Shown here one piece after another: positions 11,373 through 49,886 of a stretch of 64,000 nt of DNA. Position numbers and translations under genes: made by a program. The notes beneath the pieces were generated by a model. The model saw nothing but the letters and a program-made list of their open reading frames with translations. It searched no databases and had not been told where the DNA came from. Source of the DNA: Candidatus Poseidoniaceae archaeon (GTDB lineage Archaea > Thermoplasmatota > Poseidoniia > Poseidoniales > Poseidoniaceae); NCBI GenBank assembly GCA_045568475.1, contig JBJLAY010000028.1, forward strand, positions 121-64,120, in the 5' to 3' direction. The first letter of the stretch is position 1. Each line of letters begins with the position of its first letter.

Positions 11373-11382
11373 ATAATCACCA

Positions 11383-22779: not shown

Positions 22780-24771
22780 ATGGAACCGGAAGGCGATGTG
22801 GCAACTCCCGCACTGCTAGACCCAGAAGGTCTAGGTTTCATGTGTGGAATTGAGGTACATCAGCAGTTGGCTACCGGTAAGTTACACTCCCGTCAACCTG
22901 GAGTTCTACACGATATCACTATCGAGACACTCCCGGAAGATTGGCCTAAATTTCCTCGTCGCCTACGCTCTGCAAGAGGCGAAGGCGGAACAGTAGATGT
23001 TGCTGCAAGATTCGAATCTCGTCGTAATCGATCATTCGTTTACTGCCAATCGCCCAACTCAGGTTTGATTGAACTCGACGAGCAACCTCCATTGCCTCAT
23101 GACAATGATGCTCTAGATATTTCATTGACCGTATCTGGAATGATAAATGCACATCCTGTACCTCTACTTCAGACAATGCGCAAGACAGTTGTCGACGGTT
23201 CGAATACCAGTGGTTTTCAGCGAACTACATTAGTCGCTACAAACGGAGTTTTGGAAACCGAAGGCGGACCTGTGGGAATTGATGTGCTATGTTTGGAAGA
23301 AGACAGCGCTCGAAAACTAGACAGTGAGTTAACACCAGACGGTGAAATTGTAACATGGAATTTAGACAGACTCGGTATTCCATTAATCGAAATCGCGACA
23401 GCACCTGATGTCAAAACTCCAGATCATGCAAAGCAAACTTCGATAGCTTTGGGAAGAACTCTCAGAGATACAAGAAGAGTGAGAAGGGGCCTGGGAAGTA
23501 TTCGCCAGGATCTCAATGTGTCTATAATGTGCGGAGACAGGGTTGAAATCAAGGGTTGTCAGGATCTAGAATGGATTCCAAAAATAATCCGTTGTGAAAT
23601 GGCAAGGCAGTTACATTTCTACAGGCTAGCAAATCAATTACGTTCTGCACACGGCTTACCTCCATTATCCAATGACAGAAGGGTAGAGTCACCTTCAGTC
23701 CAAGAAGAAGTTTCTCAAATTCTCCAACTCAATCTAGTAGACGTAAGTTCTGCCTTCCAGTCGTGTGAATCCAAGAGAGTCAAATCCGGATTAGAATCCA
23801 ATTCGGTAATGTTGGCATTACCGCTTCCTGGGTTTGCAGGATTGATTGGCGTCAAGGAGTTCGATGCAGACGGTGCTCAAATGCCAAGACTTGGTCGAGA
23901 ACTTGCAGGTGCAGCAAAGTTAGCTGGCGTGGCAGGAGTTTACCATTCTGATGAATTACCGGCTTACGGAATAGAACAAGATTACGTTGATGCAACTAGG
24001 GAATTACTAGACGGCGTAGATGCTTTCGTATTGTGCTTAGCCCCACAATGGCAAGCAGAATTAGCCCTTGAGAGCGTTCTAAACCGTGCAAGAATGGCAT
24101 TCGAAAGAATCTCTCAAGAGGTTCGAAATGTTGCAATTAAGAAAGGTTCACCAGAGGATGGCACCACTACTCCAATGAGGCCTCTGCCAGGTGGTGCTAG
24201 GATGTATCCTGAAACTGACATCCCTCCTTTGGCAATTAGTTCTCAACACTGGCAAAAAATCCTAGAAAATTTACCAATGACTCAGGCAGAACGATTGGAA
24301 AGGCTTCGTGATTTCAAAATTAGTGAAGATCAAGTAAAGCAATTATGCTCTAGAGAGTTAGATGACCATTTCGTTGCACATAACAAGGACTTACCTCCTA
24401 AAGCATGGGCAACAATGCTCCTGGAGAATGACGGAGAAACAGGCTTGATGGCATTAGTATTAGCGGCCAAGGAAGAAGGACATGTTACAAGAGAAGGAAT
24501 GTCAATTTTAATCAAAGAGTTCGCTGGAAAAAACCCAAGCATGGAACAACTTGCGAATAAAGCCGAGCAATTAGGGATAAAGCCTGCAGATGCTGGAGAT
24601 CTAATGTCAATTGTTGAGAAAGTTGTAGCAAGCAGAATTGATTTCGTCAAAGAAAGAGGAATGGGCGCACTTGGTCCATTGATGGGCGTTGTTATGAAAG
24701 AATGTGGCGGGGCAGCTGACGGAAAACAGGTCAGTGCACTGTTACGAGAAGTAATTATGAGGCATTCTTAA
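22780..24771 (+). CDS. gatE: Glutamyl-tRNA(Gln) amidotransferase subunit E (archaeal GatE)
   Basis: The GatB/E hallmark is GFMCGIEVHQQLATGKL near the N-terminus, and the 663-aa length fits. Confidence 0.85.
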   Translation: MEPEGDVATPALLDPEGLGFMCGIEVHQQLATGKLHSRQPGVLHDITIETLPEDWPKFPRRLRSARGEGGTVDVAARFESRRNRSFVYCQSPNSGLIELDEQPPLPHDNDALDISLTVSGMINAHPVPLLQTMRKTVVDGSNTSGFQRTTLVATNGVLETEGGPVGIDVLCLEEDSARKLDSELTPDGEIVTWNLDRLGIPLIEIATAPDVKTPDHAKQTSIALGRTLRDTRRVRRGLGSIRQDLNVSIMCGDRVEIKGCQDLEWIPKIIRCEMARQLHFYRLANQLRSAHGLPPLSNDRRVESPSVQEEVSQILQLNLVDVSSAFQSCESKRVKSGLESNSVMLALPLPGFAGLIGVKEFDADGAQMPRLGRELAGAAKLAGVAGVYHSDELPAYGIEQDYVDATRELLDGVDAFVLCLAPQWQAELALESVLNRARMAFERISQEVRNVAIKKGSPEDGTTTPMRPLPGGARMYPETDIPPLAISSQHWQKILENLPMTQAERLERLRDFKISEDQVKQLCSRELDDHFVAHNKDLPPKAWATMLLENDGETGLMALVLAAKEEGHVTREGMSILIKEFAGKNPSMEQLANKAEQLGIKPADAGDLMSIVEKVVASRIDFVKERGMGALGPLMGVVMKECGGAADGKQVSALLREVIMRHS

Positions 24772-26442: not shown

Positions 26443-27102
26443 ATGGTACTAACCGGCGGGGTCCACGGCCCAACCCTCGCTCCCGTCGAATTATTGGCAC
26501 TTAACGCTGTATTAGTGACCATTTCTTTCTTCCTTCTTTGCAAGCCAACGCAATCTGCCAAAAGAGAAATTCTTGTTCTGTCAAGTATTACCTTGGCAGC
26601 AGCGGCGAGCCGTATTTTGCTAGAGCCATTGCCAAATGTTCAGCCCCTTACAGTGATGTGTCTGGTAATGGGTGCAACCTTGGGTGCTCGTAGAGGAATG
26701 GCATTTGCAGTAATTGCAACCATGCTCTCGAACCTAGTTCTGTCACACGGGTGGTGGACATTGTTCCAAGCAAGTGGGTGGGCCGCAGTAGCCTTTGCAG
26801 GCTCACGCTTAGGTCTAGTCATAGATAACGTAGTCCAAATGAAGCGCCTAGCAATAACTGCAGTCGTGGCTTCAGTTCTATTCGACTGGTGGGTCTCTCT
26901 ATCCATCTTTACGAGCGGAATGACCATCTCAGAGTTTGGAATCTATCTCTTGAATGGCTTACCATTCGATGCATTACACGCAGTTGGCAGTTTAGTAACA
27001 GTGGTGTGGGTTGCTCCATGGCTTGCAAACTTAGTCTTCGAAGAGACTACGCAAATCGAGCAACCACAGGTAAGCGGTGAGGCAGATGTCATCTCCGCTT
27101 AA
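26443..27102 (+). CDS. Polytopic membrane protein, possibly ECF-transporter S-component-like
   Basis: There are five to six TM helices. The ORF track starts at 26269 inside the upstream gene. The ATG at 26443 is the first that clears the stop at 26411. Confidence 0.45.
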   Translation: MVLTGGVHGPTLAPVELLALNAVLVTISFFLLCKPTQSAKREILVLSSITLAAAASRILLEPLPNVQPLTVMCLVMGATLGARRGMAFAVIATMLSNLVLSHGWWTLFQASGWAAVAFAGSRLGLVIDNVVQMKRLAITAVVASVLFDWWVSLSIFTSGMTISEFGIYLLNGLPFDALHAVGSLVTVVWVAPWLANLVFEETTQIEQPQVSGEADVISA

Positions 27103-27454
27103 TGAAGTGACAATGGTCTTGGTGACCCGTGACGATCTCAAACTTTCCAAAGGTAAGTTAGCAGCTCAATGCGCTCATGCAGCAGTTGATTGTGCCATGA
27201 AAGCGAAGAAGAAGGCAATTCGATTATACGAACGCTGGAACAATGTTGGCGCTCGAAAGATTGTTCTTCGAGCAGAGGACGAATCACAACTCCGTCTACT
27301 GTATGCAAAGGCCTTGGAGGGAGGTTTAGTATGTTCATTAATCAAAGATGCAGGCCATACAGAAATTCCCCCTGGAACAGTCACTGTTCTAGGTATAGGG
27401 CCTTCACCGCGTTCCGCAGTTGATGCCATCACTGGCGACCTGAAACTGCTTTGA
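27077..27454 (+). CDS. pth2: Peptidyl-tRNA hydrolase, archaeal/eukaryotic type Pth2
   Basis: VLVTRDDLKLSKGKLAAQCAHAA...VTVLGIGP supports the call. The start may be the ATG at 27113. Confidence 0.8.
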   Translation: MRQMSSPLNEVTMVLVTRDDLKLSKGKLAAQCAHAAVDCAMKAKKKAIRLYERWNNVGARKIVLRAEDESQLRLLYAKALEGGLVCSLIKDAGHTEIPPGTVTVLGIGPSPRSAVDAITGDLKLL

Positions 27455-27476: not shown

Positions 27477-28517
27477 ATGCGCGAGTACCCATCAGACCGT
27501 GTAGATGTCCGAAGCGACACCGTAACAAAGCCTACTGCGGCTATGCGCGTAGTTATGGAAAAGGCAGAAGTTGGTGATGACGTACTAGGTGACGATCCAA
27601 CAGTGAACGAGCTTCAGAACAGACTTGCAAAGATGTTCGGGAAAGAAGCAGCATTGTTTGTAGCAAGTGGAACTATGTCCAACGCAATTGCTTTGAGGAC
27701 CCATACAGTCCCTGGAGATGAAATTGTGTGCGACAAAACTGCTCATATCTACAAGTATGAAGGAGGCGGATATGCTGCACTTTGCGGGGTTTCAATTTCT
27801 CTTGTTGAAGGCGAAGGTGGCCTAATGACTGCCGCTCAGGTGAAATCAGCAATTCGTAAGGCTGAGGGGTCAGGCTCGCACTATCCAGATGGCAAGTTGG
27901 TTTGTGTTGAAAACACATCAAACCTTGGCGGAGGAGCATGTTACACCCAAGATGTACTGGATGAGATTGCTGCAGTAGCCAAAGAGAATGGCTGTGCAAC
28001 TCACATCGATGGTGCTAGAATTTTCAATGCTTCAATCACAACCGGAGTAGATGTTGCAAGAATGTGTAGAGACTATGATTCGGTCTCAATTTGTCTTTCA
28101 AAGGGGCTGGGCGCTCCAGTAGGGTCTGTTTTAGTTGGCTCTCAAGAGTTCATCAATAAAGCACATCGCTGGAGGAAAATGTTTGGCGGAGGTTGGAGAC
28201 AAGCAGGTGTACTTGCAGCAGCAGGCCTGTATGCCTTAGACAATCATATCGAAAGATTATCAGAAGATCATACACGCGCTTTGCGTGTGGCTACAGCAAT
28301 CAATGCAATGGATAATTTCAGCGTTGATATGAAAGCAGTCCAGTCTAATTTGGTGTATGTGAATTGTAATATTCCTGCCGCAGATGTCGTAAAATCATTG
28401 GCCGAATATGGCATCGATATGTTTGACCTCCCGTACAATCGAGTCAGGGTAGCGATTCATCTTCACATAACAGACGAAGATGTTGAACGCATCATTGCTG
28501 CTTTCGCTGCACAGTGA
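27477..28517 (+). CDS. Low-specificity L-threonine aldolase (PLP-dependent)
   Basis: The N-terminal hallmark is VDVRSDTVTKPT, and the fold is that of a type I PLP aminotransferase. Confidence 0.8.
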   Translation: MREYPSDRVDVRSDTVTKPTAAMRVVMEKAEVGDDVLGDDPTVNELQNRLAKMFGKEAALFVASGTMSNAIALRTHTVPGDEIVCDKTAHIYKYEGGGYAALCGVSISLVEGEGGLMTAAQVKSAIRKAEGSGSHYPDGKLVCVENTSNLGGGACYTQDVLDEIAAVAKENGCATHIDGARIFNASITTGVDVARMCRDYDSVSICLSKGLGAPVGSVLVGSQEFINKAHRWRKMFGGGWRQAGVLAAAGLYALDNHIERLSEDHTRALRVATAINAMDNFSVDMKAVQSNLVYVNCNIPAADVVKSLAEYGIDMFDLPYNRVRVAIHLHITDEDVERIIAAFAAQ

Positions 28518-29406
28518 TAGCGGCAATCATTGCAACCGTTAAGACAGCAATAAGGCTCAGACCTGGCAGTCCACTATCATCACTAGAATCATCGTCATCT
28601 TCCTCGACATCCTTCGGAGTATCTTCTGGCACTTCTGGAAGAACAACTTCGTGGATAAGGTGAATTTCTAGATCGTCCCCATCATATGCTGCGGGCAAAG
28701 AAATCTCTTTGCTGCCAGATAGGTCTTCACCTAATTCAACAATGGCCCTTACACTTTCATGGTAGTACTCTTCACCGTTGCCTCCCTCAGAGAAGTACGC
28801 TAAATCTTCAACAACCCATATTGATGATTTTATTGTACTGTTGTCTGGGAAATTGGACATATCTATGATTAGGTTCCATGTTACTGTTGAAGCAGAACCA
28901 TTACTCCCTGGGGCCCAACCTAGACTGGAGGTTCCAATTCCCAGGTGTAAAGAATTTTGTAGATTTGCATTGTAATCGTCTTGTAGACTGTCGCCATTAG
29001 GAACACTTCCGGTTTGCCTTAATGTTCCATTGAAAATAGCGATTGGGGGTAACCTTTGAACATATCTTTCAATCCACCTGTCATCTCCTTCTTGTGAACC
29101 CAGAGGGTCCTCATTCTCTCCGATGAACCTGTGGAAGTGATATTGTTGCATGTGGTTGGTTTCTTCGACATCATCCAGTGCATGTTCAACATCTACACAA
29201 TTGACACACCAAGTTGCAGTGTAGTCTTCAACAATAGCTGGCATTTCAGAGAAATCTAGGGACAAGTTACCTGATGAACTTGCGTTGATATGAACGCCGC
29301 CAAAGACAGCACCAACCTCATCCATTTGTTCCGGGCTTCCACTCTGAGCAGTAGGAATTGTTGACATTGCTAGAATCAACGCTACTAGAATAATGCGGGT
29401 TCGCAT
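28492..29406 (-). CDS. Secreted thioredoxin-fold protein with a C-terminal TM anchor
   Basis: It has a signal peptide and a WCxxC-type active site YTATWCVNC. The C-terminal LPGLSLIAVLTVAMIAAITVQRKQQ is preceded by an acidic linker. Confidence 0.5.
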   Translation of the reverse strand: MRTRIILVALILAMSTIPTAQSGSPEQMDEVGAVFGGVHINASSSGNLSLDFSEMPAIVEDYTATWCVNCVDVEHALDDVEETNHMQQYHFHRFIGENEDPLGSQEGDDRWIERYVQRLPPIAIFNGTLRQTGSVPNGDSLQDDYNANLQNSLHLGIGTSSLGWAPGSNGSASTVTWNLIIDMSNFPDNSTIKSSIWVVEDLAYFSEGGNGEEYYHESVRAIVELGEDLSGSKEISLPAAYDGDDLEIHLIHEVVLPEVPEDTPKDVEEDDDDSSDDSGLPGLSLIAVLTVAMIAAITVQRKQQ

Positions 29407-29508: not shown

Positions 29509-32500
29509 ATGATGACTGAGACTCGACAATACGCAACGGGACTGTCCATGGAGGCAGTACCTGCTGGCCAATCTATGCCCGATTGGCTTGTTGACGCATT
29601 GTTACACGGCCGGAAACTGATGATAATACATCCTAGCGAAGCATCCCGGAAGCAGAGCATAGAACTTCTCCATGCCCACGGGGGTGGTAAGTCAATAGAC
29701 ACTACTCATCACCTCACAATAAAACGATTGATTGGTATTTTACATCTCGATTTACGACTTCCTGTTCTGATGGAAGACGACGGGGTGTTATTCGAAAAAA
29801 CACACAAAGCATTAGCACAGGCGGCTAAGAATTACGGGTTCCCCTTATTGCAAGCAAATCCCCAAAACCGCTGGTCTAGATCAAGAAGCCGCCGCCTTCT
29901 GTCTTTACACAAGGAGTTAATCAAACTCAAGAGGCCTTGGGATTGGGAAGAAGACCCAGGGGCAAAATCTTGTGACAAGGTCCTAAAGGGCCTAGAGAAA
30001 GAAATGCAAGCAACCCACCCCTCATGTTTGGATCGAGCAGTTTGGAATGGTTTGAAAGAAAGCCAAGAAGCACCATTCACTATTTCTGATGTTGAAGGCA
30101 TAATAATGCTCGACCATCCTCCAGGTCTGAGCGAAGTTGTGATTGCAATACTGCAGGAGCTGTCTCGATTCACAGGATTCCACCAGTTGGTGAACCCGGG
30201 CTCTCACCGGCTTGGGTTTCATGGCGAATATGTTGAGGACATATCTCCAGTGCGAAATAACAAATCATTACCCAACTGGGTTCCTGAGCATGATGTATGG
30301 GCTGCAGAAGCATCCCCTGGGTGGTTAACCAGCATTGGGATAAATCGAAAATCAAACATTCATCATCTAATGTGTGAATTACAAAGCCATACTCCTCTAG
30401 CATTGGCAAATATGCTAACTCATCTCGAAGGAGATGTTCTAGTTGTTAGTGGCGATGCCGAGTCCTTGAAGCAATCTTTGAAGCCCCATTTAGATATGAT
30501 GGGGCACAAATTGTCAACGCCTTCCATCAAAGTTAGCGATAGCAGTGCTGTTGCAAGAATCATGTCTATTGTTGATATTTCTCGAGGAGAAGAGGCATGG
30601 TCATTATCTCGTTTGAACGATATTTGGTCACAGATTGAGTTGCCGATGTCTTGGCCAATATTGGACATCCAGCACCCATCGGAACAGGAGTGGAAACCAA
30701 AATTACATTCTAGTATTCTTACTGAGATAGCCAGAGGATTCCATCTATTAGGCGGCAGAGGGGCTCTGAGAAGATGGATATCCGTACTCTCTCAAGCAAC
30801 CCCTAGAGCGGGTGTTGACCCAATTAGGAGAAGTAGAGAGTTAGAAGAATGCCAATGGTGGCTCGCCTGCATCGCAAATTGGATGCACCCAATTTTGTCA
30901 TCGGCAGATCAAGAATCAATTCCACAGTCTATCGTTGGCTGTTCTTCAGGAGAAATACTTCCCATTCCTCAGCAGCCGAGTGACGCGATATCTTGGATGA
31001 ATTCATGTATGGAGCAAATCGATTGGGACATGTTAGCATCCAGAGATCAGGTTTCTGCAAACACCATTCCTGGGCTGCAACACCTAGTAACTTCAATATC
31101 TAAATTGCAAGAAGAAGATATACAAATTAATTCCGAAAACTTTAGCGAAATTTTAGAGAGCATTGCTTCGCAGGCCGAAATTCCTAGCATGAGAGCAGGA
31201 GATAAAGGCATCAAAATACTGGAGCCATCACAAGCATTTGGCCTCCAAGCGGAAAACCTAATTCTGTGCGGATTAGATTCTGAAACTTGGTCAATGAAAC
31301 CCTCTCAAATACCCTGGTTGGACGAAGCAAGCCGTATGAAAATAGGGTTGCACAGGCCGGATGAATCTCTAAGGCAAGGAAGGCACATTCTTCGACATTT
31401 ATTGAATAGTGCAAAAGAAATCGTAATCATAGATTCAAGTCTTGAAGAGGGAATAGAACTAGCAGGCCCTCTAGATGAATGGTTTAGTGATATTAACAGG
31501 GAGGGCGACCTTGCAAAGATGCATCAAGCACCACCCTTCATCGATAATTCTTCTTGGCACCCCGAGACTCCTAATCGCTCATGGGAATGGAAAACAATTC
31601 GTGGAGAAACGGTTCTAGTTTTCAGAGTAAATTCAATGGAAACAATAGAAGGAAGAGTTCGTACCCACAGAAGTGGGAATCTTAACAGAGACTACGTGCA
31701 ACGTGCCGGATTGTCCACTCTCGAATCCCGCAGACCTACATTGTTGCCTCTAAATCTTGATTCACTCCTTTCTGCTGCAGAAGTAGAAATCCTTGCAGAC
31801 CAGTATTCTCGAAGAAGAACGGGAGAGGGCCTTGAGCTTGGCGAAATATTCGAGTTCAGCGAGGCTCCAAATCGAATACAATCTATTGATATCAACCTCA
31901 TTCCCACAAAGAGTAAACCAGCAAATGCTCGACAATCTGATGCATGGCCTCACTTAGGTATAATGGGCAAAAAAAGCCTAGGCCTCCCAATAGATCCTCG
32001 GCCAATTCAACCACCTTCAACTATGATCGAATCACTAGATGGTATAACTGGCAGAAGCGAAAACCAACTTAGATTACCAGTAGTTTGGTCACAAGGCCGC
32101 CTTCAATCATGGCTTGAATGTCCCAGAAAAGCATGGTTTCAACGCCATATGTACCTTGGTAAAGATGACAATATGAGAGAGGATTTAGCAGCCACTGCAA
32201 GAGGAGACATAGTCCACCAGGTAGAAGAAGCGATATTACGAGCCCATGGCCTTGAAGAAGGCACAATTCCTGATGCCCCGGTTACATTACAATCAGGACC
32301 AGTAGATTTGGATTCAGCATGGTTAATCGCATTACAGACTTTGGAAGACAAAGCACCTTGGATGCGTAGGGAAGACGGCATTTCAGCCCATAGGTGTAGA
32401 GATCTGATTGGGGTTTCCCCCGGGCGTTGGAAAGAATGGATTGAATCTAGAACCCCAATAGAATTAGGTGGAAGAATCGGTAGAATGTTAGAATCAGATT

Positions 32501-33180
32501 TCGCACTTACTGATGCAGCCCCCATAGCCTCGGAATGGGAACTAGAAAGCAATGGGAACAAAAGAGTTGAACTCGGGTTACCCGATTGTGAAACTACTTT
32601 CAATCTACGCGGCAGGGTTGACAGAGTCGACCAATTGTTGTCATACCGGCATGAGAATTCGGGAGTTACAGATGTCATACCCTTAGATTTTGAATTTGAC
32701 AACCCTCCAAAATCTAACAGATTAGTGATTATCAGGGATCTAAAATCTGTAGATGGTACAAAAGATAATGGCGGTGATGAACGCCATCTTAAGGCAATAT
32801 TCAACGAATTACAATTGGCCCTATATGCACGTGCTTGGGAAATAGCAAACCCCGGCGACAGGGTAATTGGAGTAGGTGCAACTCAAGTGGGGATAGATAC
32901 TCATCCTTATCTCGAAGTAGATCCCGAGTTCATTGAAGAGTGTGACAATCTAGAAGTTGGTTCAGTACAAGGGCAAACTCATGACCATTACAGATTACCA
33001 GGGGATTCCAAGGATGAAACATCTAATCCGTTTAGAGCATGGATGAGAGAAAGAATCACAACAGCAATCAGAGTAATAGAAAATGCAACTGCTGGCAATA
33101 TACATCCTGAACCATCAGAATCCTGCAAGTATTGTCCGATAACAGAATCTTGTCCAAGTGCTTTACGAGGTGGTTGGTGA
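29509..33180 (+). CDS. AddB-like subunit with a degenerate N-terminal helicase-like region and a C-terminal RecB-family nuclease carrying a 4-Cys cluster
   Basis: The Cys cluster is CPRK...(nuclease)...CKYCPITESC, giving C-x(n)-C-x2-C-x5-C. The nuclease motifs are GRVDRVDQL, IIRDLKSVDG and QLALYARAW. There is no intact Walker A (IIHPSEASRKQ). The stop overlaps the start of the next gene. Confidence 0.65.
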   Translation: MMTETRQYATGLSMEAVPAGQSMPDWLVDALLHGRKLMIIHPSEASRKQSIELLHAHGGGKSIDTTHHLTIKRLIGILHLDLRLPVLMEDDGVLFEKTHKALAQAAKNYGFPLLQANPQNRWSRSRSRRLLSLHKELIKLKRPWDWEEDPGAKSCDKVLKGLEKEMQATHPSCLDRAVWNGLKESQEAPFTISDVEGIIMLDHPPGLSEVVIAILQELSRFTGFHQLVNPGSHRLGFHGEYVEDISPVRNNKSLPNWVPEHDVWAAEASPGWLTSIGINRKSNIHHLMCELQSHTPLALANMLTHLEGDVLVVSGDAESLKQSLKPHLDMMGHKLSTPSIKVSDSSAVARIMSIVDISRGEEAWSLSRLNDIWSQIELPMSWPILDIQHPSEQEWKPKLHSSILTEIARGFHLLGGRGALRRWISVLSQATPRAGVDPIRRSRELEECQWWLACIANWMHPILSSADQESIPQSIVGCSSGEILPIPQQPSDAISWMNSCMEQIDWDMLASRDQVSANTIPGLQHLVTSISKLQEEDIQINSENFSEILESIASQAEIPSMRAGDKGIKILEPSQAFGLQAENLILCGLDSETWSMKPSQIPWLDEASRMKIGLHRPDESLRQGRHILRHLLNSAKEIVIIDSSLEEGIELAGPLDEWFSDINREGDLAKMHQAPPFIDNSSWHPETPNRSWEWKTIRGETVLVFRVNSMETIEGRVRTHRSGNLNRDYVQRAGLSTLESRRPTLLPLNLDSLLSAAEVEILADQYSRRRTGEGLELGEIFEFSEAPNRIQSIDINLIPTKSKPANARQSDAWPHLGIMGKKSLGLPIDPRPIQPPSTMIESLDGITGRSENQLRLPVVWSQGRLQSWLECPRKAWFQRHMYLGKDDNMREDLAATARGDIVHQVEEAILRAHGLEEGTIPDAPVTLQSGPVDLDSAWLIALQTLEDKAPWMRREDGISAHRCRDLIGVSPGRWKEWIESRTPIELGGRIGRMLESDFALTDAAPIASEWELESNGNKRVELGLPDCETTFNLRGRVDRVDQLLSYRHENSGVTDVIPLDFEFDNPPKSNRLVIIRDLKSVDGTKDNGGDERHLKAIFNELQLALYARAWEIANPGDRVIGVGATQVGIDTHPYLEVDPEFIEECDNLEVGSVQGQTHDHYRLPGDSKDETSNPFRAWMRERITTAIRVIENATAGNIHPEPSESCKYCPITESCPSALRGGW

Positions 33181-36100
33181 TGATTAATTTCAACCGTTCT
33201 CAAAGATTAGGCCTTGATATTGATAGGCACATTGCTCTTGATGCGGGGGCAGGTACTGGTAAAACCACAGTAATGGCAAGCAGATATCTCCAACACCTAC
33301 TATCGGGTGACCAAAGAGCCACTAGACTGTTACCTTCTGCACCCAGAATTCCATTACAAGGAATGGGTGCGATTAGATGCCCTTCAAGAGAGAGAACGAC
33401 CCTTACAGACTGGCCGGGGCTACTACCTACTGAAACTGTAGCCATCACTTTCACTCGTAAAGCAGCCGCAGAATTAAAAGGACGAATTAGGAGACTCATC
33501 GCCTCTTTGCGTGCCCAACCTACCAGTGAAGGAGACGCCGATGGAGTTCATGACACTAGGTTGCGTAATCAGGGCGATGTGGCAATGTTACTTTCGTTAG
33601 TCGATGATGCACCAATCTCTACTATTGACTCGTTTTTATCATCAATTGTTTCTCCTTGGTTGGGACTTGTATGCGATGATCCAACCAGTGAACAAGTCGA
33701 TGAAGATGGAGCTATTTTTCTTAGAGAAGAAGCGATTAGAACAGCATGGAGATTACAACGCGGTATCGAGGGTATCGAGGCGGGGATGTCGGGAGATATT
33801 GAATCATTCTTGACAGCAAGAGACAGACTTTCAGTACTACTGGGGGGCCAATCATCATCTTCAACTGTAGTTAGAGGTATGCTGAAGCGTTCACTATTCG
33901 TCGAAGAAGCAGCAAGAAGGTTGAACGCAGGCGATTTAGAAAACATTAACGCTTCAACACTCGATGATTTATTCATCAATCCAATAATGGAATTTATTGA
34001 TGATTGGTATGCCGAATTCAGAGCGTACGTTACTCTATGGGTTGACGCATGGTTAGATGGCAGTGCTCTATTTGTTACAGAGGCGGATGAAGCGCAAGGA
34101 ATGACTCGCTATCGCTATGTCCAACATCTTTGTACCGTAGATGCTAACACTCAATTAGAGAGACTGCAATGGATTTGGCTTGTGTCACATGCAGTAACTA
34201 CTTTCAGAAATCTCAAAGAAATCAATTGTAAATCATTACATCATTCTCGCCCACCCAAAGGTAACGGTTGGCCGAGCGGTATTGCGACCAAAGGAGAATG
34301 CACATTGCAGAATGCAGTCAAGGACATGATAACAGCGAATGCTAGTGAACATGCTAACTCAATCAAAGCAATGCTACACACTTCCAGAGGTCTACTAATA
34401 CGTATACTTGGGCAATCATCACACCTACTCAATCCCTTATTTGCCGACCCAAATCCAGTTCCAGGGCAGATTGCTTATCCTCCAAGATTGGATGTAGACT
34501 TACCACAATTACCTCCGTGTGAATCAATGAGGCTGACTACCGAATTAGAAATTCAAGTGATTCAAGATTTATTCACTGTTCATCACGGAGTTCAAGAAAT
34601 CCTATCTCGTTTGAAAGTACAAGAGGGGGTTAGAGATCACGACGATATGCACCGTCTAGCTGAGGATTTACTATTGACTAAATGTCCAGCAGTATGTCGA
34701 AGTTGGTATCCAACATCAGTTATAGATGCTCTAGACTCCATTGGCGAGAGACCTTGGTCGGATGACCATTTACACCTTGCAATTCATGCCAGCCAAGGCA
34801 ATGAAGAAGTGCACGTTGATTTGATGCGCCGAATCGACATTTTACGAGAATTAAGAAGACAGTACAGGGCCTTCATTATCGATGAGTACCAAGATACAAA
34901 CCCACAACATTTCAGATTATTAGCAAGACTTTGGGGCCGCAGAAAGATATCGGAATCAGAACCTCCTCCCCCTGCCTCGCAATGGGATCCAACAATATGC
35001 ATTGTAGGTGACATGAAGCAGTCTATCTACCGATTTAGGCAAGCAGAAGTAACAGTAATGAGAACTGCAGTGGCTGCAATTAGGGAAATGAACCGTGACG
35101 AGGCAATTATGGAATCTCGAACCGAAAGCCTTCGCAGGCCCGATGCAGCGAGAGACCCTAGGCCAATACCTGGGGCCACTGGAGAATCGACAACCTTCGT
35201 TCGTTCAAGTGAATTATTGAGTGAGGATGCTGATAGAAACGAATGGATTTCTTTCCACTTAGATGATGACGAAGAAACGATCGATAATGAACTGCTTAAT
35301 CGAAGAAGAGAAGGGCATATCGAGATGTCGACAAACCATCGAACGCTTCCAAGATTGATGAATACGATGAATTCAATTTTCCAAGATTCGTTCTCAGACA
35401 GGCACCATATTTTACCCGGGCCGTGGCACGCCGAAGCCCAAGATTTGTCACCTGCCAGAAGTTCAGAAACCAATGCAAAATTGGAATGGATTCTTCCGGC
35501 TAGAACTGGAAATGGTATGAGGCCAACAGATCCAGAGGTTGCCATTGACCCATTCCTCTACGAAGGTTCCAAAGATCGAGAACTTGCAGCCAACCTACTA
35601 GCTAAGAGAATATCTGCACTGATTAACGGAGGGCCTGCTCGAATATATTCGGTATCTTCAGATTCATGGCTTGACGTTGCTGAAGAATCTGGAGCCTATC
35701 GGGCCGAGGATATCATGATCCTTGTGGCTTCACACAGTAGAGTTCCACAGTTGATAGATGCCCTAGATCGCCACGGAGTTCCAGCGATGGCAGGCAAGCA
35801 AGGAGTACTATTACACCGTCCAGTAATTCAACCATTGATGTCATTACTATGGCTTCTGACATCGCCAAATGACAAGAGCGCAGCATTAGCAGTGGCAAGG
35901 TCGACTTTGATAGGAATGAATGATTCTGATTTAATCGAACATCTTTCTAATCATGATGGGAATCAGTTACGGGGTCTGATAGATTCCGCTCCAACAGAAG
36001 AGGTTGGCTCTCTAATTTCTAGGTTCGAGGACCTTGCATCCAAAGGAAAAATCAGGGATGCGATAGAAACAGCAATCGATTATTCCGATTTACTCTATTC

Positions 36101-38009
36101 TTATCCACGCGAAGGAGACAGACAAGATGTTGAGAACTGGTTGTCGCTTTATGATCGAATTGCAGATAGAGTTGGAGGCGATGCTGCATTAGTTTACAGG
36201 CGATTGACAGAACTTTCCAATCTTGACGATAAGGATGCACCAAAGAGCAGTTCCCCTGGTTCTTCAGGGGCCGTTCAAATTCTTTCTATACACGGTTCAA
36301 AGGGACTAGAGGCGCCGGTTGTGGTAGCGTACGATGTATTCGCTACTGGTACTCGCGACACCTCTTTTTCATCTTCAGACAACGTTCTAGTTACCCCGGA
36401 CATAGTTGCTGGAAGAATACATCCATGGCGAGGCTCAGATAAGCCCCTAAGTGGTTTATGGACGCTTGCTAATTTGTTTGATGACGGCCAGCAAAGAGCT
36501 GAGCGTAGACGCCAATTTTACGTCGCTCTGACAAGAGCGAGGGACCGAGTAATCATCGCAGGAACATCATCGAGCGGTGCTACAATAGACGCCAACGGAT
36601 TAATCAAAATGAAACGAGGAAAGGGCCGACAGAATATGGGTCAAATGTTCTTGGATGGATTAGCCCATGCATCAATAGAAGCAGGAAACGAAGGTTGCAG
36701 TTGGTCAGTAGGCGGAATTGACCAAACGGCTTCAACACTTCATTTGGACCCAGGGCAATTATACCTCAACGCCTACCTCGGCGATAATTGCGTTCAAGGA
36801 ATTTCGATTTTCCATCACCCCGATTGCTTTGAGAGTAATGCCCAAGCATCAACTCTAAACATTTGGAGACAAAGATTAGACTTGTCCCAAACCGTAGAAT
36901 CAAATCCTGTGGATAGCATTCCAAAAGCCATCACTTTCAATGTGCCAATGACCTCTCATGGGCTTGATGTAACACACGCTTGTAACAGGAGGCATTGGCT
37001 GTCAAGTAAATTAAATTGGAATTCAGAACGGTTCGAATTCATCACTCATAATAAAGAAGATATGTATTGGCCTGCAGCAACGGAGTTCGGGTCACTATTC
37101 CATAGATTATTGGAAATTGGTTTAGCAAACCCTGGCTCAAATGCCGGTGACCTAGATGCAACTTGGACTCAGAAACAGTTAGACAATCTGACTAATGAAA
37201 AGACACTGGATGAAGTCATGGCACAATCAAGTATTACAGATGAAGAAATCACCGGTAGAACCCGACTTAGATTGTTACACTTAGGTAAATTAGCTAGAAA
37301 TGGAGCACTTGGCAAATTAGTTTCAGGCGAGGAATACGACGGATTCAAAGTTGAAGGATTGCGTACTGAGTTACCATTCTATCTCTCATTGAACCATCGT
37401 CCAGATTCGCTACACAGATCAATTTGGACACCTCACGGGCGCCAAATTAAGTCTGTAATCGAGTCAATAAACGCAATTTTTGATGGAAGAGCAGACCTAG
37501 TTCTAGCACTCAGGGACCGAGAATCTCAAGGATGGTTACAGGTAGTTGACGCTAAGACAAAACAATGTCTTGGGGGATTCAATCCCTCAAACCCTTTGGA
37601 AGGTAATGAATTACAGATGTCTCTAAGCGAGACCTCGCCCCATGCATCATCTCCTTCCGAAGAAGCCATAATTGCCGAACATCGGCTTCAATTGACACTT
37701 TACAGCCTGGCTTTAGAAATCGGCGAAGCAATCAAGCCTGAATCCGAGAGGCGAAAAATTCTGCCGCCAGCGATTCAAATTTCAGCCTCAGGCAGAATGG
37801 TTCGTATGACTGACGAAGATTACAAGGAGGCAAGATTGGATTTGGATGAATTGATTAGGTGGATTGGAGAAACCGAAGCATTAGAAGAAGAAGCAACCCC
37901 TCCTAGAAGGTTACCAGTGGAGCAATCTTCAACATGTGAGTCGTGCCCTTACTACAGTGGTTCAATCAAACTTTGTGGCCCTGAAGGTGAGAGGCTTGGC
38001 CCAGCATAA
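33180..38009 (+). CDS. AddA/RecB-like SF1 (UvrD-family) helicase fused to a C-terminal RecB-family nuclease
   Basis: Motif I is DAGAGTGKTT, Ia is VAITFTRKAAAELKGRIRR, II is FIIDEYQDTNPQHF, III is GDMKQSIYRFRQA, V is ILSIHGSKGLEAPVV and VI is YVALTRARDRVII. The nuclease motifs are ADLVLALRD...VVDAKTKQ and QLTLYSLAL, with CESCPYYSGSIKLC at the C-terminus. The ATG at 33180 overlaps the upstream TGA as TGATG. The ORF track starts 48 nt earlier. Confidence 0.8.
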   Translation: MINFNRSQRLGLDIDRHIALDAGAGTGKTTVMASRYLQHLLSGDQRATRLLPSAPRIPLQGMGAIRCPSRERTTLTDWPGLLPTETVAITFTRKAAAELKGRIRRLIASLRAQPTSEGDADGVHDTRLRNQGDVAMLLSLVDDAPISTIDSFLSSIVSPWLGLVCDDPTSEQVDEDGAIFLREEAIRTAWRLQRGIEGIEAGMSGDIESFLTARDRLSVLLGGQSSSSTVVRGMLKRSLFVEEAARRLNAGDLENINASTLDDLFINPIMEFIDDWYAEFRAYVTLWVDAWLDGSALFVTEADEAQGMTRYRYVQHLCTVDANTQLERLQWIWLVSHAVTTFRNLKEINCKSLHHSRPPKGNGWPSGIATKGECTLQNAVKDMITANASEHANSIKAMLHTSRGLLIRILGQSSHLLNPLFADPNPVPGQIAYPPRLDVDLPQLPPCESMRLTTELEIQVIQDLFTVHHGVQEILSRLKVQEGVRDHDDMHRLAEDLLLTKCPAVCRSWYPTSVIDALDSIGERPWSDDHLHLAIHASQGNEEVHVDLMRRIDILRELRRQYRAFIIDEYQDTNPQHFRLLARLWGRRKISESEPPPPASQWDPTICIVGDMKQSIYRFRQAEVTVMRTAVAAIREMNRDEAIMESRTESLRRPDAARDPRPIPGATGESTTFVRSSELLSEDADRNEWISFHLDDDEETIDNELLNRRREGHIEMSTNHRTLPRLMNTMNSIFQDSFSDRHHILPGPWHAEAQDLSPARSSETNAKLEWILPARTGNGMRPTDPEVAIDPFLYEGSKDRELAANLLAKRISALINGGPARIYSVSSDSWLDVAEESGAYRAEDIMILVASHSRVPQLIDALDRHGVPAMAGKQGVLLHRPVIQPLMSLLWLLTSPNDKSAALAVARSTLIGMNDSDLIEHLSNHDGNQLRGLIDSAPTEEVGSLISRFEDLASKGKIRDAIETAIDYSDLLYSYPREGDRQDVENWLSLYDRIADRVGGDAALVYRRLTELSNLDDKDAPKSSSPGSSGAVQILSIHGSKGLEAPVVVAYDVFATGTRDTSFSSSDNVLVTPDIVAGRIHPWRGSDKPLSGLWTLANLFDDGQQRAERRRQFYVALTRARDRVIIAGTSSSGATIDANGLIKMKRGKGRQNMGQMFLDGLAHASIEAGNEGCSWSVGGIDQTASTLHLDPGQLYLNAYLGDNCVQGISIFHHPDCFESNAQASTLNIWRQRLDLSQTVESNPVDSIPKAITFNVPMTSHGLDVTHACNRRHWLSSKLNWNSERFEFITHNKEDMYWPAATEFGSLFHRLLEIGLANPGSNAGDLDATWTQKQLDNLTNEKTLDEVMAQSSITDEEITGRTRLRLLHLGKLARNGALGKLVSGEEYDGFKVEGLRTELPFYLSLNHRPDSLHRSIWTPHGRQIKSVIESINAIFDGRADLVLALRDRESQGWLQVVDAKTKQCLGGFNPSNPLEGNELQMSLSETSPHASSPSEEAIIAEHRLQLTLYSLALEIGEAIKPESERRKILPPAIQISASGRMVRMTDEDYKEARLDLDELIRWIGETEALEEEATPPRRLPVEQSSTCESCPYYSGSIKLCGPEGERLGPA

Positions 38010-38622
38010 CCAATGTTCCTGGAAAATCATCTTTTGAAGCGACTTGATGGATTTCTACATTAGTAAAACCAGCCGAAACCATTGCGTCTTTCCATTGTGC
38101 AATACTTAGGGTAGTCATGTGAACTCCAACGTGCTCAGGCCATGTTAGGGACTCTTCATGCTCCTTGTAATGGTCTACTCCTGCAACTAAGATACCCCCA
38201 TCATTCAGCCAATTGTCGTGAATAATGGAAATCATTTCTGCGGGGTCATGTAAGTAGTAGAGGAATTCCATAGAATGTACCAAATCAAAGGTTTGCTCAG
38301 GCTGCCATTCTGGAAGATATCCATGTGAATATTTGTGAACAGAATCGATTTCTTTTGCCTTGTTAATCATTGCTTCAGCGCCATCGACACCCTCGCTGTG
38401 TGCTGCACCTAATTCAGTTAGCATTCGCGTAACCCATCCATTACCACAACCTAGATCAATCGATGTGAAATCATTTCCAACCTTTGGTAAAGCAAGTTCT
38501 AACATCTTTTTGACAGAGGGGGCGTGTCCTCTTTCCATGCCCTCATCCTTACCGATTAATGCCCATTGAGAAAATACTTCAGTCGCAGACTTGGGTTGCA
38601 TTATATGGCGCAATCGAATCAC
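37966..38622 (-). CDS. Class I SAM-dependent methyltransferase
   Basis: Motif I is IDLGCGNGWVTRML. Confidence 0.65.
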   Translation of the reverse strand: MIRLRHIMQPKSATEVFSQWALIGKDEGMERGHAPSVKKMLELALPKVGNDFTSIDLGCGNGWVTRMLTELGAAHSEGVDGAEAMINKAKEIDSVHKYSHGYLPEWQPEQTFDLVHSMEFLYYLHDPAEMISIIHDNWLNDGGILVAGVDHYKEHEESLTWPEHVGVHMTTLSIAQWKDAMVSAGFTNVEIHQVASKDDFPGTLVMLGQASHLQGHKV

Positions 38623-49466: not shown

Positions 49467-49886
49467 TCAATGTCCCTCGGGGCGCTCATATTCAGGAGTC
49501 AATCTTGCCATAACTGCCATGTGCTTTGAAGAAAAGAAGAACATGTAAATTGGAACTAATAGGGTGCAAATAGCAAGAAGAATTAGTGTATAAATTCCCC
49601 ACGGCTCAACACTTCTGATAAACAAAGTCCATGCAATCCAGAGAACAGAAAGCCACATCAAAGGCGACCAGCGTCTAGCCATTGCAGAGAATCTTGCATT
49701 GGCAGTAGAACTATCGTATAGTGAAGCAGCCTCTTCTTGGGTCACTAATCCTTTCTCAACTCCACATCGAACACAGACCTGACTTTTAGGTCCATTTCCA
49801 TGTATGAATTGCTCACGGGCATAGGTGCCGTAGCAGTGACGACAGGTCGGCATGTTATCCGCCACTAACCGCCTCCACTTCAACAA
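49467..49886 (-). CDS. Small membrane protein with an N-terminal zinc-ribbon-like CxxC...CxxC
   Basis: CRHCYG...CVRCG is followed by two TM helices. Confidence 0.45.
   Translation of the reverse strand: MLKWRRLVADNMPTCRHCYGTYAREQFIHGNGPKSQVCVRCGVEKGLVTQEEAASLYDSSTANARFSAMARRWSPLMWLSVLWIAWTLFIRSVEPWGIYTLILLAICTLLVPIYMFFFSSKHMAVMARLTPEYERPEGH

What the first reader, a model, noticed from the sequence alone, without database searches (positions are those of the whole stretch)
29509..38009. Bacterial-type AddAB-like two-subunit helicase-nuclease operon in an archaeal chromosome
Two translationally coupled giant ORFs (TGATG overlap at 33178-33182) have the architecture of AddAB/AdnAB. The second has a complete SF1A UvrD/Rep motif set (GAGTGKTT, TFTRKAAAEL, DEYQDT, GDMKQSIYRFR, HGSKGLE, YVALTRAR) fused to a RecB-type PD-(D/E)xK nuclease (VVDAKT, QLTLY). 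The first lacks a functional P-loop but ends in a RecB-family nuclease (IIRDLKS, QLALYARAW) bracketed by the AddB-type iron-staple Cys pattern C...CxxCx5C. Archaeal DNA-end resection is classically Mre11-Rad50-HerA-NurA, while AddAB/RecBCD are bacterial recombination and anti-phage machines. An intact AddAB-like pair here sits between unrelated housekeeping genes, with a thioredoxin-like gene upstream and a methyltransferase downstream. That suggests horizontal acquisition and possibly a role in DSB repair or foreign-DNA degradation in this lineage.
Basis: partly seen in the sequence, partly recalled or inferred. Interest (0 to 1): 0.72.

Follow-up and report, generated by a model that had tools for sequence, protein, structure and literature searches.

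The report
AddAB-type helicase-nuclease in marine archaea
Two overlapping giant genes encode a bacterial-style AddAB DNA-end-processing enzyme that is a fixed, vertically inherited core gene pair of the abundant Marine Group II archaea (Poseidoniales), not a recent import.

Summary
ORF1 (29509-33180, 1223 aa) and ORF2 (33180-38009, 1609 aa) overlap in TGATG, and every quoted motif is present.

- ORF2 is a complete SF1A UvrD-type helicase fused to a RecB-type nuclease. Its best solved relative is B. subtilis AddA.
- ORF1 has no P-loop and matches only PD-(D/E)XK by sequence. Its AlphaFold model matches B. subtilis AddB over the full length (Foldseek E 2.7e-21), ahead of AdnA and RecC.

The pair is therefore an AddAB-type single-motor, dual-nuclease complex.

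The host is a Poseidoniales (Marine Group II) archaeon. The recent-transfer reading is not supported:
- GC and codon usage equal the flanks.
- 294 GTDB species genomes encode the ORF1 relative.
- All 80 loci inspected have ORF1, and where the contig extends far enough they share the block MCM-GatE-...-AddB-AddA-methyltransferase-...-PSD.
- Three loci from two deeper-branching relatives share the core of this block.

Any bacterial origin predates the order.

Differences from canonical AddAB:
- Both subunits carry a conserved four-cysteine iron-staple pattern.
- AddB lacks Walker A.
- Both proteins score far below the curated AddA/AddB thresholds.

Archaeal addAB has been suggested in the literature before. 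I rate this a new member of a known kind, of moderate interest.

The parts
29509..33180 (+). addB-like gene (1223 aa): an inactivated UvrD-like helicase fold without a P-loop, followed by a C-terminal RecB/Cas4-type nuclease with a four-cysteine staple.
   Evidence: ORF and translation. Pfam PDDEXK_1 only. The AF2 model has pLDDT 81. Foldseek top hits are B. subtilis AddB 4cei_B/4ceh_B/3u44_B, E 2.7e-21 to 3e-19, TMq about 0.5. There is a weak addB_alphas hit in 9 of 19 family members.
29509..31758 (+). AddB-like N-terminal region (about residues 1-750), a degenerate helicase-like domain. Walker A is replaced by IIHPSEASRKQ. Family-invariant motifs include DHPP, NPGSHRLGxHG, GGRGALRRW, QWW and RH. 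I infer this is the strand-scanning or Chi-scanning domain.
   Evidence: Invariant columns. No Walker A. Structural matches to AddB, RecC, AdnA and UvrD cores. The role is inferred from the B. subtilis AddB structure paper PMC3321194.
32086..33177 (+). AddB-like nuclease domain (about residues 860-1223). Features: C871 (32119-32121), H903, D1038 (32620-32622), D1077-x-K1079 (32737-32745), Q1102..Y1106 (32812-32826), and C1206-x2-C1209-x5-C1215 (33124-33153).
   Evidence: Pfam PDDEXK_1. All listed residues are invariant or at least 90% conserved in 19-40 homologues. They are kept in the deep lineages L081 and L082.
33178..33182 (+). TGATG stop/start overlap that couples addB-like and addA-like translation.
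   Evidence: Sequence. Most of the 78 related loci show the same kind of overlap, TGATG, TAATG or ATGA.
33180..38009 (+). addA-like gene (1609 aa): an SF1A UvrD/Rep-type helicase with all motifs, fused to a C-terminal RecB-type nuclease.
   Evidence: Pfam UvrD-helicase, UvrD_C and PDDEXK_1. NCBIfam recB 128 bits and addA_Gpos 114 bits, both below the cutoffs. The best PDB sequence hit is B. subtilis AddA 3u44_A, E 4.7e-11. Motifs are invariant in 69 orthologs.
33243..36542 (+). Helicase core of the AddA-like protein: Walker A AGAGTGKTT (33243-33269), motif II DEYQD (34881-34895), motif III GDMKQSIYRFR (35007-35039), motif VI YVALTRAR (36519-36542).
   Evidence: Translation. Per-column conservation is 68-69 of 69.
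36957..38006 (+). AddA-like nuclease domain (about residues 1260-1609). Features: H1308, D1439, D1457-x-K1459 (37548-37556), Q1504..Y1508. It also has a second four-cysteine pattern: C1268 (36981-36983) and C1586-x2-C1589-x9-C1599 (37935-37976).
   Evidence: Pfam PDDEXK_1. Cysteines are conserved in 66, 67, 68 and 55 of 69 orthologs and in deep lineages. The AF2 model has pLDDT 84 and matches the AdnA, AddA, Cas4-family ACE1 and AddB nuclease domains.
28492..29406 (-). Divergently transcribed upstream neighbour, a secreted or membrane-anchored CxxC protein that is weakly thioredoxin-like. It is not part of the system and its syntenic link is loose.
   Evidence: Translation. TrxC at E 0.0075 only. 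In Poseidoniaceae loci it lies about 1.5 kb further upstream, and it is not detected in L082/L083.
37966..38622 (-). Convergent downstream class I SAM methyltransferase whose 3' end overlaps addA-like by 44 bp. It is a conserved neighbour, with no evidence that it is a DNA methyltransferase or part of the system.
   Evidence: Pfam Methyltransf_23/25/11. The best NCBIfam hits are small-molecule methyltransferases, all below cutoff. Synteny.

Best explanation
The two genes encode a heterodimeric AddAB-type helicase-nuclease that is a core, vertically inherited component of Poseidoniales (Marine Group II) archaea.

Inferred mechanism, by homology with B. subtilis AddAB:
- The complex binds a double-stranded DNA end.
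- The AddA-like subunit (ORF2) is the only ATP-driven motor. It moves 3'->5' on one strand and unwinds the duplex, and its C-terminal RecB nuclease cuts that 3' strand.
- The AddB-like subunit (ORF1) supplies an inactivated helicase-like domain that the 3' strand passes through. In bacteria this is the Chi-scanning site.
- The AddB-like subunit also supplies a second, iron-sulfur-stapled RecB nuclease that cuts the 5' strand.
- The product is a 3' single-stranded tail for the archaeal recombinase RadA. As in bacteria, a by-product would be degradation of unprotected linear DNA.

Shown here: gene structure and coupling, domain composition, conservation of every catalytic motif, the AddB fold of ORF1, distribution across the order, and synteny.

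Inferred: heterodimer formation, strand polarity, Fe-S binding, any Chi-like regulation, and hand-off to RadA.

The pair is not a recent transfer. If it came from Bacteria, this happened before the Poseidoniales families diverged.
For: 1. Architecture. The overlapping addB-like then addA-like genes are confirmed, and the coupling is conserved in most of 78 loci.

2. ORF2. It has UvrD-helicase, UvrD_C and PDDEXK_1 domains. Its best solved relative is AddA 3u44_A, E 4.7e-11. All helicase and nuclease motifs are invariant in 69 orthologs.

3. ORF1.
- It has no Walker A.
- Its full-length AF2 model (pLDDT 81) matches B. subtilis AddB chains best, at E 2.7e-21 and TMq 0.51. AdnA (2.8e-15) and RecC (1.2e-10) follow.
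- The nuclease motifs and four cysteines are invariant or nearly so.
- Nine of 19 family members weakly match addB_alphas, and none match another AddB model.

4. Vertical inheritance.
- 294 GTDB species genomes encode it. The 80 loci shown are Poseidoniales of both families or generically labelled archaeal MAGs, plus one labelled Flavobacteriales.
- The same gene order, MCM-GatE-...-lyase-AddB-AddA-MTase-hydrolase-...-PSD-rSAM, holds in the loci with enough flank.
- The core of this order holds in deeper relatives whose GatE is only 47-50% identical.
- GC, GC3 and codon usage lie within the range of the flanking genes.

5. No relatives were found on IMG/VR viral contigs.
Against: - Both proteins score far below the curated NCBIfam thresholds. 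For ORF2, recB scores 128 against 696, addA_Gpos 114 against 708, and addA_alphas 96 against 861. For ORF1, addB_alphas scores 28 against 487.
- The ORF1 profile finds no solved AddB by sequence.
- An exhaustive profile search of 1.84 billion representatives found only 443 hits, with no visible continuum to bacterial AddB among the 150 listed. The AddB assignment of ORF1 therefore rests on predicted structure, domain order and gene context.
- No biochemical evidence exists.
- No Chi sequence is known for this lineage.
- How a bacterial-type resection machine would hand DNA to RadA is unknown.
- I could not build a phylogeny with bacterial sequences, so the direction and timing of any inter-domain transfer are not shown.
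Confidence: 0.8

Rival explanations
1. The pair is a recently acquired bacterial AddAB operon or genomic island in this particular archaeal chromosome.
For: AddAB and RecBCD are classically bacterial. The flanking genes are functionally unrelated. The literature notes a suggestion that addAB genes were transferred 'even into the archaea' (PMC2887965, citing Cromie 2009).
Against: - GC is 0.447-0.448 and GC3 0.36-0.37. The codon-usage distance is 0.043-0.055, within the flank range.
- The same position and neighbours are seen in about 80 species of both families and in deeper relatives.
- Identity among orthologs falls to 23-35% while synteny is kept. This indicates long vertical descent.
- No mobile-element genes are adjacent.
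Confidence: 0.03
2. The pair is a dedicated anti-virus or anti-plasmid defence system, a helicase-nuclease that degrades foreign DNA, and not a repair enzyme.
For: RecBCD and AddAB degrade linear foreign DNA in bacteria (established knowledge). ORF2 shows domain-level similarity to the Gabija GajB UvrD helicases, and ORF1 and ORF2 to Cas4-family nucleases.
Against: - The PADLOC hits are generic domain matches. The best is GajB at 65 bits over part of the helicase, and there is no GajA or other partner.
- Defence systems are typically patchy and sit in variable islands. This pair was found in 294 species genomes and is fixed in a conserved core block next to MCM and GatE.
- No neighbouring defence genes were found.
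Confidence: 0.07
3. The pair is an AdnAB-like dual-motor enzyme or a RecBC-like enzyme, not AddAB.
For: AdnA and RecC are the second and third best structural matches of ORF1. The best NCBIfam score of ORF2 is the recB model.
Against: - AdnA retains Walker A and B motifs and binds nucleotide (PMC3321194, PMC8789073). ORF1 has no Walker A in the window, in 76 of 78 orthologs or in the deep lineages.
- RecC has no active nuclease, whereas ORF1 keeps every RecB-nuclease motif and the Fe-S cysteines.
- No RecD-like SF1B helicase lies in the window's surveyed ORFs.
Confidence: 0.05
4. ORF2 acts alone, like the stand-alone UvrD-Cas4-like fusion helicase-nucleases described in bacteria and mesophilic archaea. 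ORF1 is then an unrelated PD-(D/E)XK nuclease that merely lies next to it.
For: Hudaiberdiev et al. 2017 (PMC5704561) describe a large branch of UvrD-Cas4-like fusions in bacteria and mesophilic archaea. ORF2 has a Cas4/AddB-like four-cysteine nuclease domain.
Against: - Those fusions are reported as stand-alone or in non-conserved contexts.
- Here the two genes are translationally coupled in most loci examined and co-inherited throughout.
- ORF1 has the complete AddB fold, including the helicase-like scaffold that partners AddA.
Confidence: 0.05

Closest known systems
AddAB helicase-nuclease of Bacillus subtilis (PDB 3U44, 3U4Q, 4CEH-4CEJ)
   Same: - Gene order is addB then addA (the B. subtilis order is from my own knowledge).
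- One SF1A motor-nuclease subunit.
- One subunit with an inactivated helicase fold plus a RecB nuclease stapled by C...CxxCx5C.
- It is the best structural match of ORF1 and the best solved sequence match of ORF2.
   Different: - B. subtilis AddB keeps a Walker A site that binds nucleotide (PMC3321194). ORF1 has none.
- B. subtilis AddA has no Fe-S cluster (PMC3378879). ORF2 has a conserved four-cysteine pattern.
- ORF2 is about 380 residues longer.
- Structure-based alignment identity is only about 11-13%, and curated AddA/AddB thresholds are not reached.
- The host is archaeal, so the recombinase is RadA and not RecA.
Proteobacterial-type AddAB (NCBIfam TIGR02786 addB_alphas / TIGR02784 addA_alphas)
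   Same: It is the only AddB sequence model that the family touches. Nine of 19 members match it, with best E 2.4e-08, over residues about 522-643. ORF2 scores 96 bits on addA_alphas.
   Different: Scores are about 5-10% of the trusted cutoffs (28 against 487 and 96 against 861), so the pair is not an equivalog. I did not obtain sequences of this bacterial class for direct comparison.
Mycobacterial AdnAB (PDB 6PPJ, 7SJR, 9NP6)
   Same: It is a heterodimer of two UvrD-like plus RecB-nuclease subunits. Its Fe-S cluster is in the AddB-position subunit AdnA (PMC8789073). It is the second-best structural match for ORF1 and the best for the ORF2 nuclease domain.
   Different: AdnA retains Walker A and B motifs and binds AMPPNP, and ORF1 does not. 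No Fe-S cluster is reported in the motor subunit AdnB in the papers I read.
RecBCD (E. coli)
   Same: The overall logic of end resection is shared. RecC is an inactivated helicase scaffold that matches ORF1 structurally. The recB model gives the highest NCBIfam score for ORF2.
   Different: RecC has no active nuclease and no Fe-S cluster. RecBCD needs the second motor RecD, and none is encoded nearby.
Stand-alone UvrD-Cas4-like fusions and Cas4-family nucleases (Hudaiberdiev et al. 2017)
   Same: They combine an SF1 helicase with a PF12705 nuclease, and they are reported in mesophilic archaea. The Fe-S cysteine pattern as in Cas4 is my extrapolation for the fusions, not a statement in the paper.
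   Different: Those are single genes in non-conserved contexts. Here there is an obligatory-looking, translationally coupled AddB-fold partner and a fixed genomic position.
Archaeal Mre11-Rad50-HerA-NurA resection machinery
   Same: The presumed biological task is the same: making 3' tails at DNA double-strand breaks for RadA.
   Different: The protein folds and mechanism are unrelated. I could not test its presence or absence in Poseidoniales. No such genes lie in this 64-kb window.

Membership tests
AddAB helicase-nuclease | Two adjacent, co-oriented genes (addB then addA) expressed as an operon. | tested here: met
   The TGATG overlap is at 33178-33182. The same type of stop/start overlap occurs in most of 78 orthologous loci.
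AddAB helicase-nuclease | AddA is an SF1A UvrD/PcrA-type helicase with intact motifs I-VI, fused to a C-terminal RecB-family nuclease. | tested here: met
   Pfam UvrD-helicase, UvrD_C and PDDEXK_1. Motifs are invariant in 69 orthologs. AddA 3u44_A is the best PDB sequence hit. The nuclease-domain model matches AdnA, AddA and AddB nucleases.
AddAB helicase-nuclease | AddB has a helicase-like N-terminal fold that has lost the motor motifs, followed by a RecB-family nuclease. | tested here: met
   The AF2 model (pLDDT 81) matches AddB chains 4cei_B, 4ceh_B and 3u44_B best, E about 1e-20 and TMq 0.5 over the full length. No Walker A. PDDEXK_1 at the C-terminus.
AddAB helicase-nuclease | A four-cysteine iron staple (one Cys before and three after the nuclease core) in AddB that binds a 4Fe-4S cluster. 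| tested here: inconclusive
   The cysteine pattern is present. C871 is invariant, and C1206, C1209 and C1215 are at least 90% conserved. Cluster binding cannot be shown by computation.
AddAB helicase-nuclease | Sequence membership in the curated AddA/AddB equivalog models (TIGR02785, TIGR02784, TIGR02786). | tested here: not met
   addA_Gpos scores 114 against 708, addA_alphas 96 against 861, and addB_alphas 28 against 487. The pair is not an equivalog of any curated bacterial subfamily.
AddAB helicase-nuclease | Heterodimer with ATP-dependent dsDNA-end helicase and dual-nuclease activity, regulated by a Chi sequence. | not testable with these tools
   This needs biochemistry and whole genomes to search for a skewed, over-represented oligomer.
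AdnAB | Both subunits retain nucleotide-binding Walker A and B motifs. | tested here: not met
   ORF1 and 76 of 78 orthologs have no [AG]x4GK[ST]. The equivalent site reads IIHPSEASRKQ.
RecBCD | RecC scaffold without an active nuclease, plus a RecD SF1B motor subunit. | tested here: not met
   ORF1 keeps H...D...DxK...QxxxY and the Fe-S cysteines. No RecD-like gene is among the window's ORFs.
Known anti-phage defence systems (PADLOC, e.g. Gabija) | Match to a system-specific protein model together with its partner genes, in a variable genomic location. | tested here: not met
   Only generic GajB (UvrD) and Cas4 domain-level hits were found, with no partner. The location is a fixed core position found in 294 species genomes.
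Stand-alone UvrD-Cas4-like fusion (PF12705 branch, Hudaiberdiev 2017) | A single helicase-nuclease gene, stand-alone or in non-conserved contexts. | tested here: not met
   ORF2 is always preceded by, and usually overlaps, the AddB-fold gene, and the context is conserved. I did not test phylogenetic placement of ORF2 relative to that branch.

The most novel reading that the evidence does not exclude
In Marine Group II archaea and their deeper relatives, a highly diverged AddAB has become the housekeeping DNA-end resection machine and works with the archaeal recombinase RadA, possibly replacing HerA-NurA. It would also be a distinct AddAB variant in which both the motor subunit and the scaffold subunit carry an iron-sulfur-stapled nuclease and the scaffold has lost nucleotide binding. 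It may recognise a lineage-specific Chi-like sequence.
Probability: 0.3. Interest if true: 0.65.

Novelty: new member of a known kind. Interest (0 to 1): 0.42.

Why it matters
[quoted passage not shown] Textbook accounts give archaea a Mre11-Rad50-HerA-NurA resection pathway and treat AddAB and RecBCD as bacterial.

The result shows that a whole, ecologically dominant archaeal order carries a fixed AddAB-type enzyme in a conserved core gene block that also holds MCM. This raises three testable questions:
- How does a bacterial-type resection motor hand DNA to RadA?
- Has it displaced HerA-NurA?
- Does this lineage have a Chi-like regulatory sequence?

It also bears on how these archaea deal with UV-induced breaks and with linear viral DNA. 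Public records name the two proteins only generically, as 'PD-(D/E)XK nuclease family protein', 'UvrD-helicase domain-containing protein' or 'hypothetical', so better annotation would be a practical gain.

Tried and rejected
1. My first exhaustive profile search with alignment A2 failed because the profile exceeded 1200 positions. I rebuilt it from shorter members.

2. The homologue search with ORF2 returned 839 hits, but the 120 listed were all family members. No bacterial outgroup was obtained and no inter-domain phylogeny could be built.

3. The profile of ORF1 against PDB sequences found nothing significant, with Cas4 at E 0.31. The AddB assignment therefore had to come from structure.

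4. The AlphaFold-database library (afdb50) was not available. I could not find the nearest structural neighbours with organism names.

5. Cluster look-ups gave no organism names for the deep-branching relatives L081-L083. Their taxonomy is inferred only from core-gene divergence.

6. Cromie 2009, the source for addAB in archaea, is not held. Only a secondary citation could be read.

7. Literature searches for AddAB, RecB or Mre11 together with Marine Group II or Poseidoniales found nothing relevant. The Rinke et al. survey has no occurrence of 'helicase' or 'nuclease', and its mentions of repair concern photolyase.

8. The viral-contig scan found no relatives.

9. I considered a k-mer search for a Chi-like motif and rejected it. 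The sequence held is one 64-kb window plus homologous copies of the same syntenic block, so counts would be non-independent and confounded with gene orientation.

10. I considered testing for HerA and NurA in Poseidoniales genomes.
Full report
**1. Observation**

The window holds two long forward-strand frames, 29509..33180 (1223 aa) and 33132..38009. The DNA at the junction reads ...ggtggttggTGATGatt.... ORF1 therefore stops at TGA 33178-33180, and the ATG at 33180-33182 starts a 1609-aa ORF2.

- ORF2 has GAGTGKTT, TFTRKAAAEL, DEYQDT, GDMKQSIYRFR, HGSKGLE, YVALTRAR, VVDAKT and QLTLY.
- ORF1 has IIRDLKS, QLALYARAW, C871 in WLECPRKAW, and C1206-x2-C1209-x5-C1215.

Pfam gives UvrD-helicase, UvrD_C and PDDEXK_1 for ORF2, and PDDEXK_1 alone for ORF1.

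**2. The host**

The neighbourhood is archaeal. It includes MCM (20625-22739), GatE (22780-24771), Trm1 (17076-18362, minus strand), archaeal-type Pth2 (27077-27454), PAC2 proteins and very large PKD/FG-GAP surface proteins.

Named homologues of both ORFs come from Candidatus Poseidoniales, Poseidoniaceae or 'Euryarchaeota' marine MAGs. The window is a Marine Group II (Poseidoniales) chromosome segment.

**3. What the two proteins are**

*ORF2.* It scores on the curated recB (128 bits), addA_Gpos (114) and addA_alphas (96) models, always far below the trusted cutoffs of about 700-860. Among solved structures, B. subtilis AddA is the best sequence match at E 4.7e-11, ahead of E. coli RecB and UvrD1. 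In 69 orthologs extracted from related loci, the helicase motifs and the nuclease residues H, D, DxK and QxxxY are invariant or nearly so.

*ORF1.* It cannot be assigned to AddB by sequence.
- Its family profile finds no solved AddB.
- Only a weak local match to the proteobacterial addB model appears. That is 28 bits for the window protein, with 9 of 19 family members matching at best E 2.4e-08, and no other AddB model is matched.

I therefore predicted its structure for residues 24-1223 with a 40-sequence alignment. The model has mean pLDDT 81. Foldseek against the PDB puts the five B. subtilis AddB chains first (E 2.7e-21 to 3.4e-19, TMq about 0.5, full-length alignment). AdnA, RecC and UvrD-type helicases follow.

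ORF1 has no Walker A motif, and neither do 76 of 78 orthologs or the deep lineages. The corresponding site reads IIHPSEASRKQ. Its C-terminal nuclease keeps all catalytic residues. C871 is invariant and the three C-terminal cysteines are at least 90% conserved.

ORF1 is thus an AddB-fold protein: an inactivated helicase scaffold plus an iron-staple nuclease. Together with the coupled gene order, this makes the pair an AddAB-type single-motor, dual-nuclease enzyme.
- It is not AdnAB, because the second subunit has no nucleotide site.
- It is not RecBC(D), because the second subunit has an intact nuclease and no RecD is nearby.

**4.

ORF2 also has a four-cysteine pattern around its nuclease domain. 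C1268 lies in a C-x-R-x-x-W context, like AddB's first cysteine, and is followed much later by C1586-x2-C1589-x9-C1599. The cysteines are conserved in 66, 67, 68 and 55 of 69 orthologs and in the most divergent lineages.

The papers I read place the Fe-S cluster in AddB only, or in AdnA, the AddB-position subunit. AddA is described as a second nuclease without a cluster (PMC3378879, PMC3321194, PMC8789073).

A model of the ORF2 nuclease domain (pLDDT 84) matches the AdnA, AddA, Cas4-family (ACE1) and AddB nuclease domains about equally, at E about 1e-5. Structure search therefore does not settle the question. Dual Fe-S staples are an inference from cysteine conservation only. I cannot say that no bacterial AddA has such a pattern.

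**5. Distribution and inheritance**

- ORF1 has 93 clusters at 90% identity in the 5.8-billion-protein collection. Nearly all cover the full length at 28-89% identity.
- A scan of one genome per GTDB species found relatives in 294 genomes. The 80 loci shown are Poseidoniales of both families (Poseidoniaceae and Thalassarchaeaceae) or generically labelled archaeal MAGs. One MAG is labelled Flavobacteriales, and because it shares the full archaeal synteny I take this to be a binning or labelling error.
- tblastn of 15 window proteins against the 80 loci shows the same block wherever the contig extends far enough: MCM-GatE-PQQ protein-DUF6580-Pth2-beta-eliminating lyase-(CxxC protein)-AddB-AddA-methyltransferase-hydrolase-coiled-coil protein-PSD-...-radical SAM.
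- The stop/start overlap between the two genes is conserved as TGATG, TAATG or ATGA in most loci.
- AddB and AddA evolve faster than their neighbours. Between the two families they are 33-35% and 40-42% identical, against 57-78% for several neighbouring genes.
- An exhaustive HMM search of 1.84 billion cluster representatives with the ORF1 profile found only 443 hits. About 35 are full length and the rest are fragments.
- The most divergent full-length members sit in the same MCM-GatE...AddB-AddA...PSD context. One lies on a 3.0-Mb, 71% GC contig. Their GatE is only 47-50% identical to the window's, more divergent than the two MGII families are from each other.
- GC (0.447 and 0.448), GC3 and codon usage of the two genes are inside the range of the flanking genes.
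- No relatives occur on IMG/VR viral contigs.

The pair is a vertically inherited core feature of the Poseidoniales and of at least some deeper relatives. Recent horizontal acquisition is rejected. An ancient transfer from Bacteria is plausible, because the kind is otherwise bacterial and the family is confined to this lineage. I could not show it, because the searches returned no bacterial outgroup sequences.

**6. How it most likely works**

By homology with the B. subtilis enzyme (PMC3321194), the heterodimer binds a DNA end.
- The AddA-like motor translocates 3'->5' and unwinds the duplex.
- The AddA-like nuclease cuts the 3' strand.
- The AddB-like nuclease cuts the 5' strand.

That domain contains many family-invariant residues, including DHPP, NPGSHRLGxHG, GGRGALRRW, QWW and RH. 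This fits a conserved DNA-contacting or subunit-interface role. Whether a Chi-like signal exists is untested.

Unlike B. subtilis AddB, there is no nucleotide site that could stabilise a Chi complex. In this respect ORF1 resembles RecC.

The product would be a 3' tail for RadA, and how loading would occur is unknown. As with bacterial AddAB and RecBCD, degradation of unprotected linear DNA would be an expected side activity. Nothing here marks the pair as a dedicated defence system. PADLOC gives only generic UvrD (GajB) and Cas4 domain hits, and the locus is a fixed core position.

**7. Comparison with what is known, and novelty**

[quoted passage not shown] The cited paper is not held. From my own memory, its abstract mentions an unexpected identification of archaeal addAB genes, but I could not verify this.

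Hudaiberdiev et al. 2017 describe stand-alone UvrD-Cas4-like fusions in bacteria and mesophilic archaea.

I found no paper that mentions this enzyme in Marine Group II. Public records name the proteins only generically.

The pair is a new member of a known kind. It has some variant traits: a very divergent AddB without Walker A, probable Fe-S staples in both subunits, and a long AddA. By the curated sequence thresholds it is not an equivalog of any bacterial AddA or AddB model. This lowers the claim 'it is an ortholog of AddAB subfamily X', not the claim 'it works like AddAB'.

**8. Verdict**

The AddAB-like assignment is supported and strengthened by the structure match. The suggestion of horizontal acquisition based on context is not supported, except as an ancient event.

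Interest is moderate. The pair was found in 294 species genomes of a globally dominant archaeal order, and it opens testable questions about AddAB-RadA cooperation, possible displacement of HerA-NurA, and an archaeal Chi. The kind of machine is well known, and archaeal addAB has been suggested before.

Noticed in passing
window 4766-5911 (+) and 5891-6760 (-): A stand-alone 381-aa PD-(D/E)XK nuclease (PF12705, E 5e-20, full-length match) lies tail-to-tail with, and overlaps, a DnaQ/RNase T-type 3'-5' exonuclease (PF00929). It looks like a solo Cas4-like nuclease. It could be a second DNA-end-processing activity in the same genome.
   Followed up: no
window 52520-60874 (-): A 2784-aa open reading frame with no Pfam match at E <= 0.001. 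It lies directly downstream of, and overlaps, an aminotransferase class IV gene (51829-52533), beyond which is a chorismate-binding/GATase fusion gene (49880-51838). Its function is unknown.
   Followed up: no
L081 (ENA ERZ26167216, contig of 3,002,195 bp), locus coordinates 10001-18168: A deep-branching relative with 71% GC on a 3.0-Mb contig keeps the MCM-GatE...AddB-AddA...PSD block, and its core genes are only about 50% identical to the window's. It may represent a non-marine or otherwise unusual lineage related to Poseidoniales.
   Followed up: partly
L002 (PAZG01000017.1): The contig is deposited as 'Flavobacteriales bacterium isolate SP80', yet it carries the complete archaeal syntenic block (MCM, GatE, AddB, AddA and the rest) at 68-95% identity to the window. 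This is almost certainly a mis-binned or mislabelled MAG contig.
   Followed up: partly
window 28492-29406 (-): The upstream neighbour is not a cytoplasmic thioredoxin. It has a signal peptide, one WCVNC motif, an acidic linker and a C-terminal transmembrane helix, which suggests an extracytoplasmic thiol-disulfide protein. Pfam finds nothing and TrxC scores only E 0.0075.
   Followed up: partly
window 3875-4786 (-) and 16281-17087 (+): Two PAC2-family genes (proteasome assembly chaperone-like) lie within 12 kb of each other.
   Followed up: no
window about 46000-48000: Cumulative GC skew peaks here and then falls. The turn coincides with the switch from mostly plus-strand to minus-strand genes at about 47.6 kb. 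The data here cannot show whether it marks a replication landmark or only gene orientation.
   Followed up: no
window 44171-46342 (+): A 723-aa protein combines EF-hand calcium-binding motifs with a C-terminal SAP DNA-binding domain. This is an unusual pairing for an archaeon.
   Followed up: no
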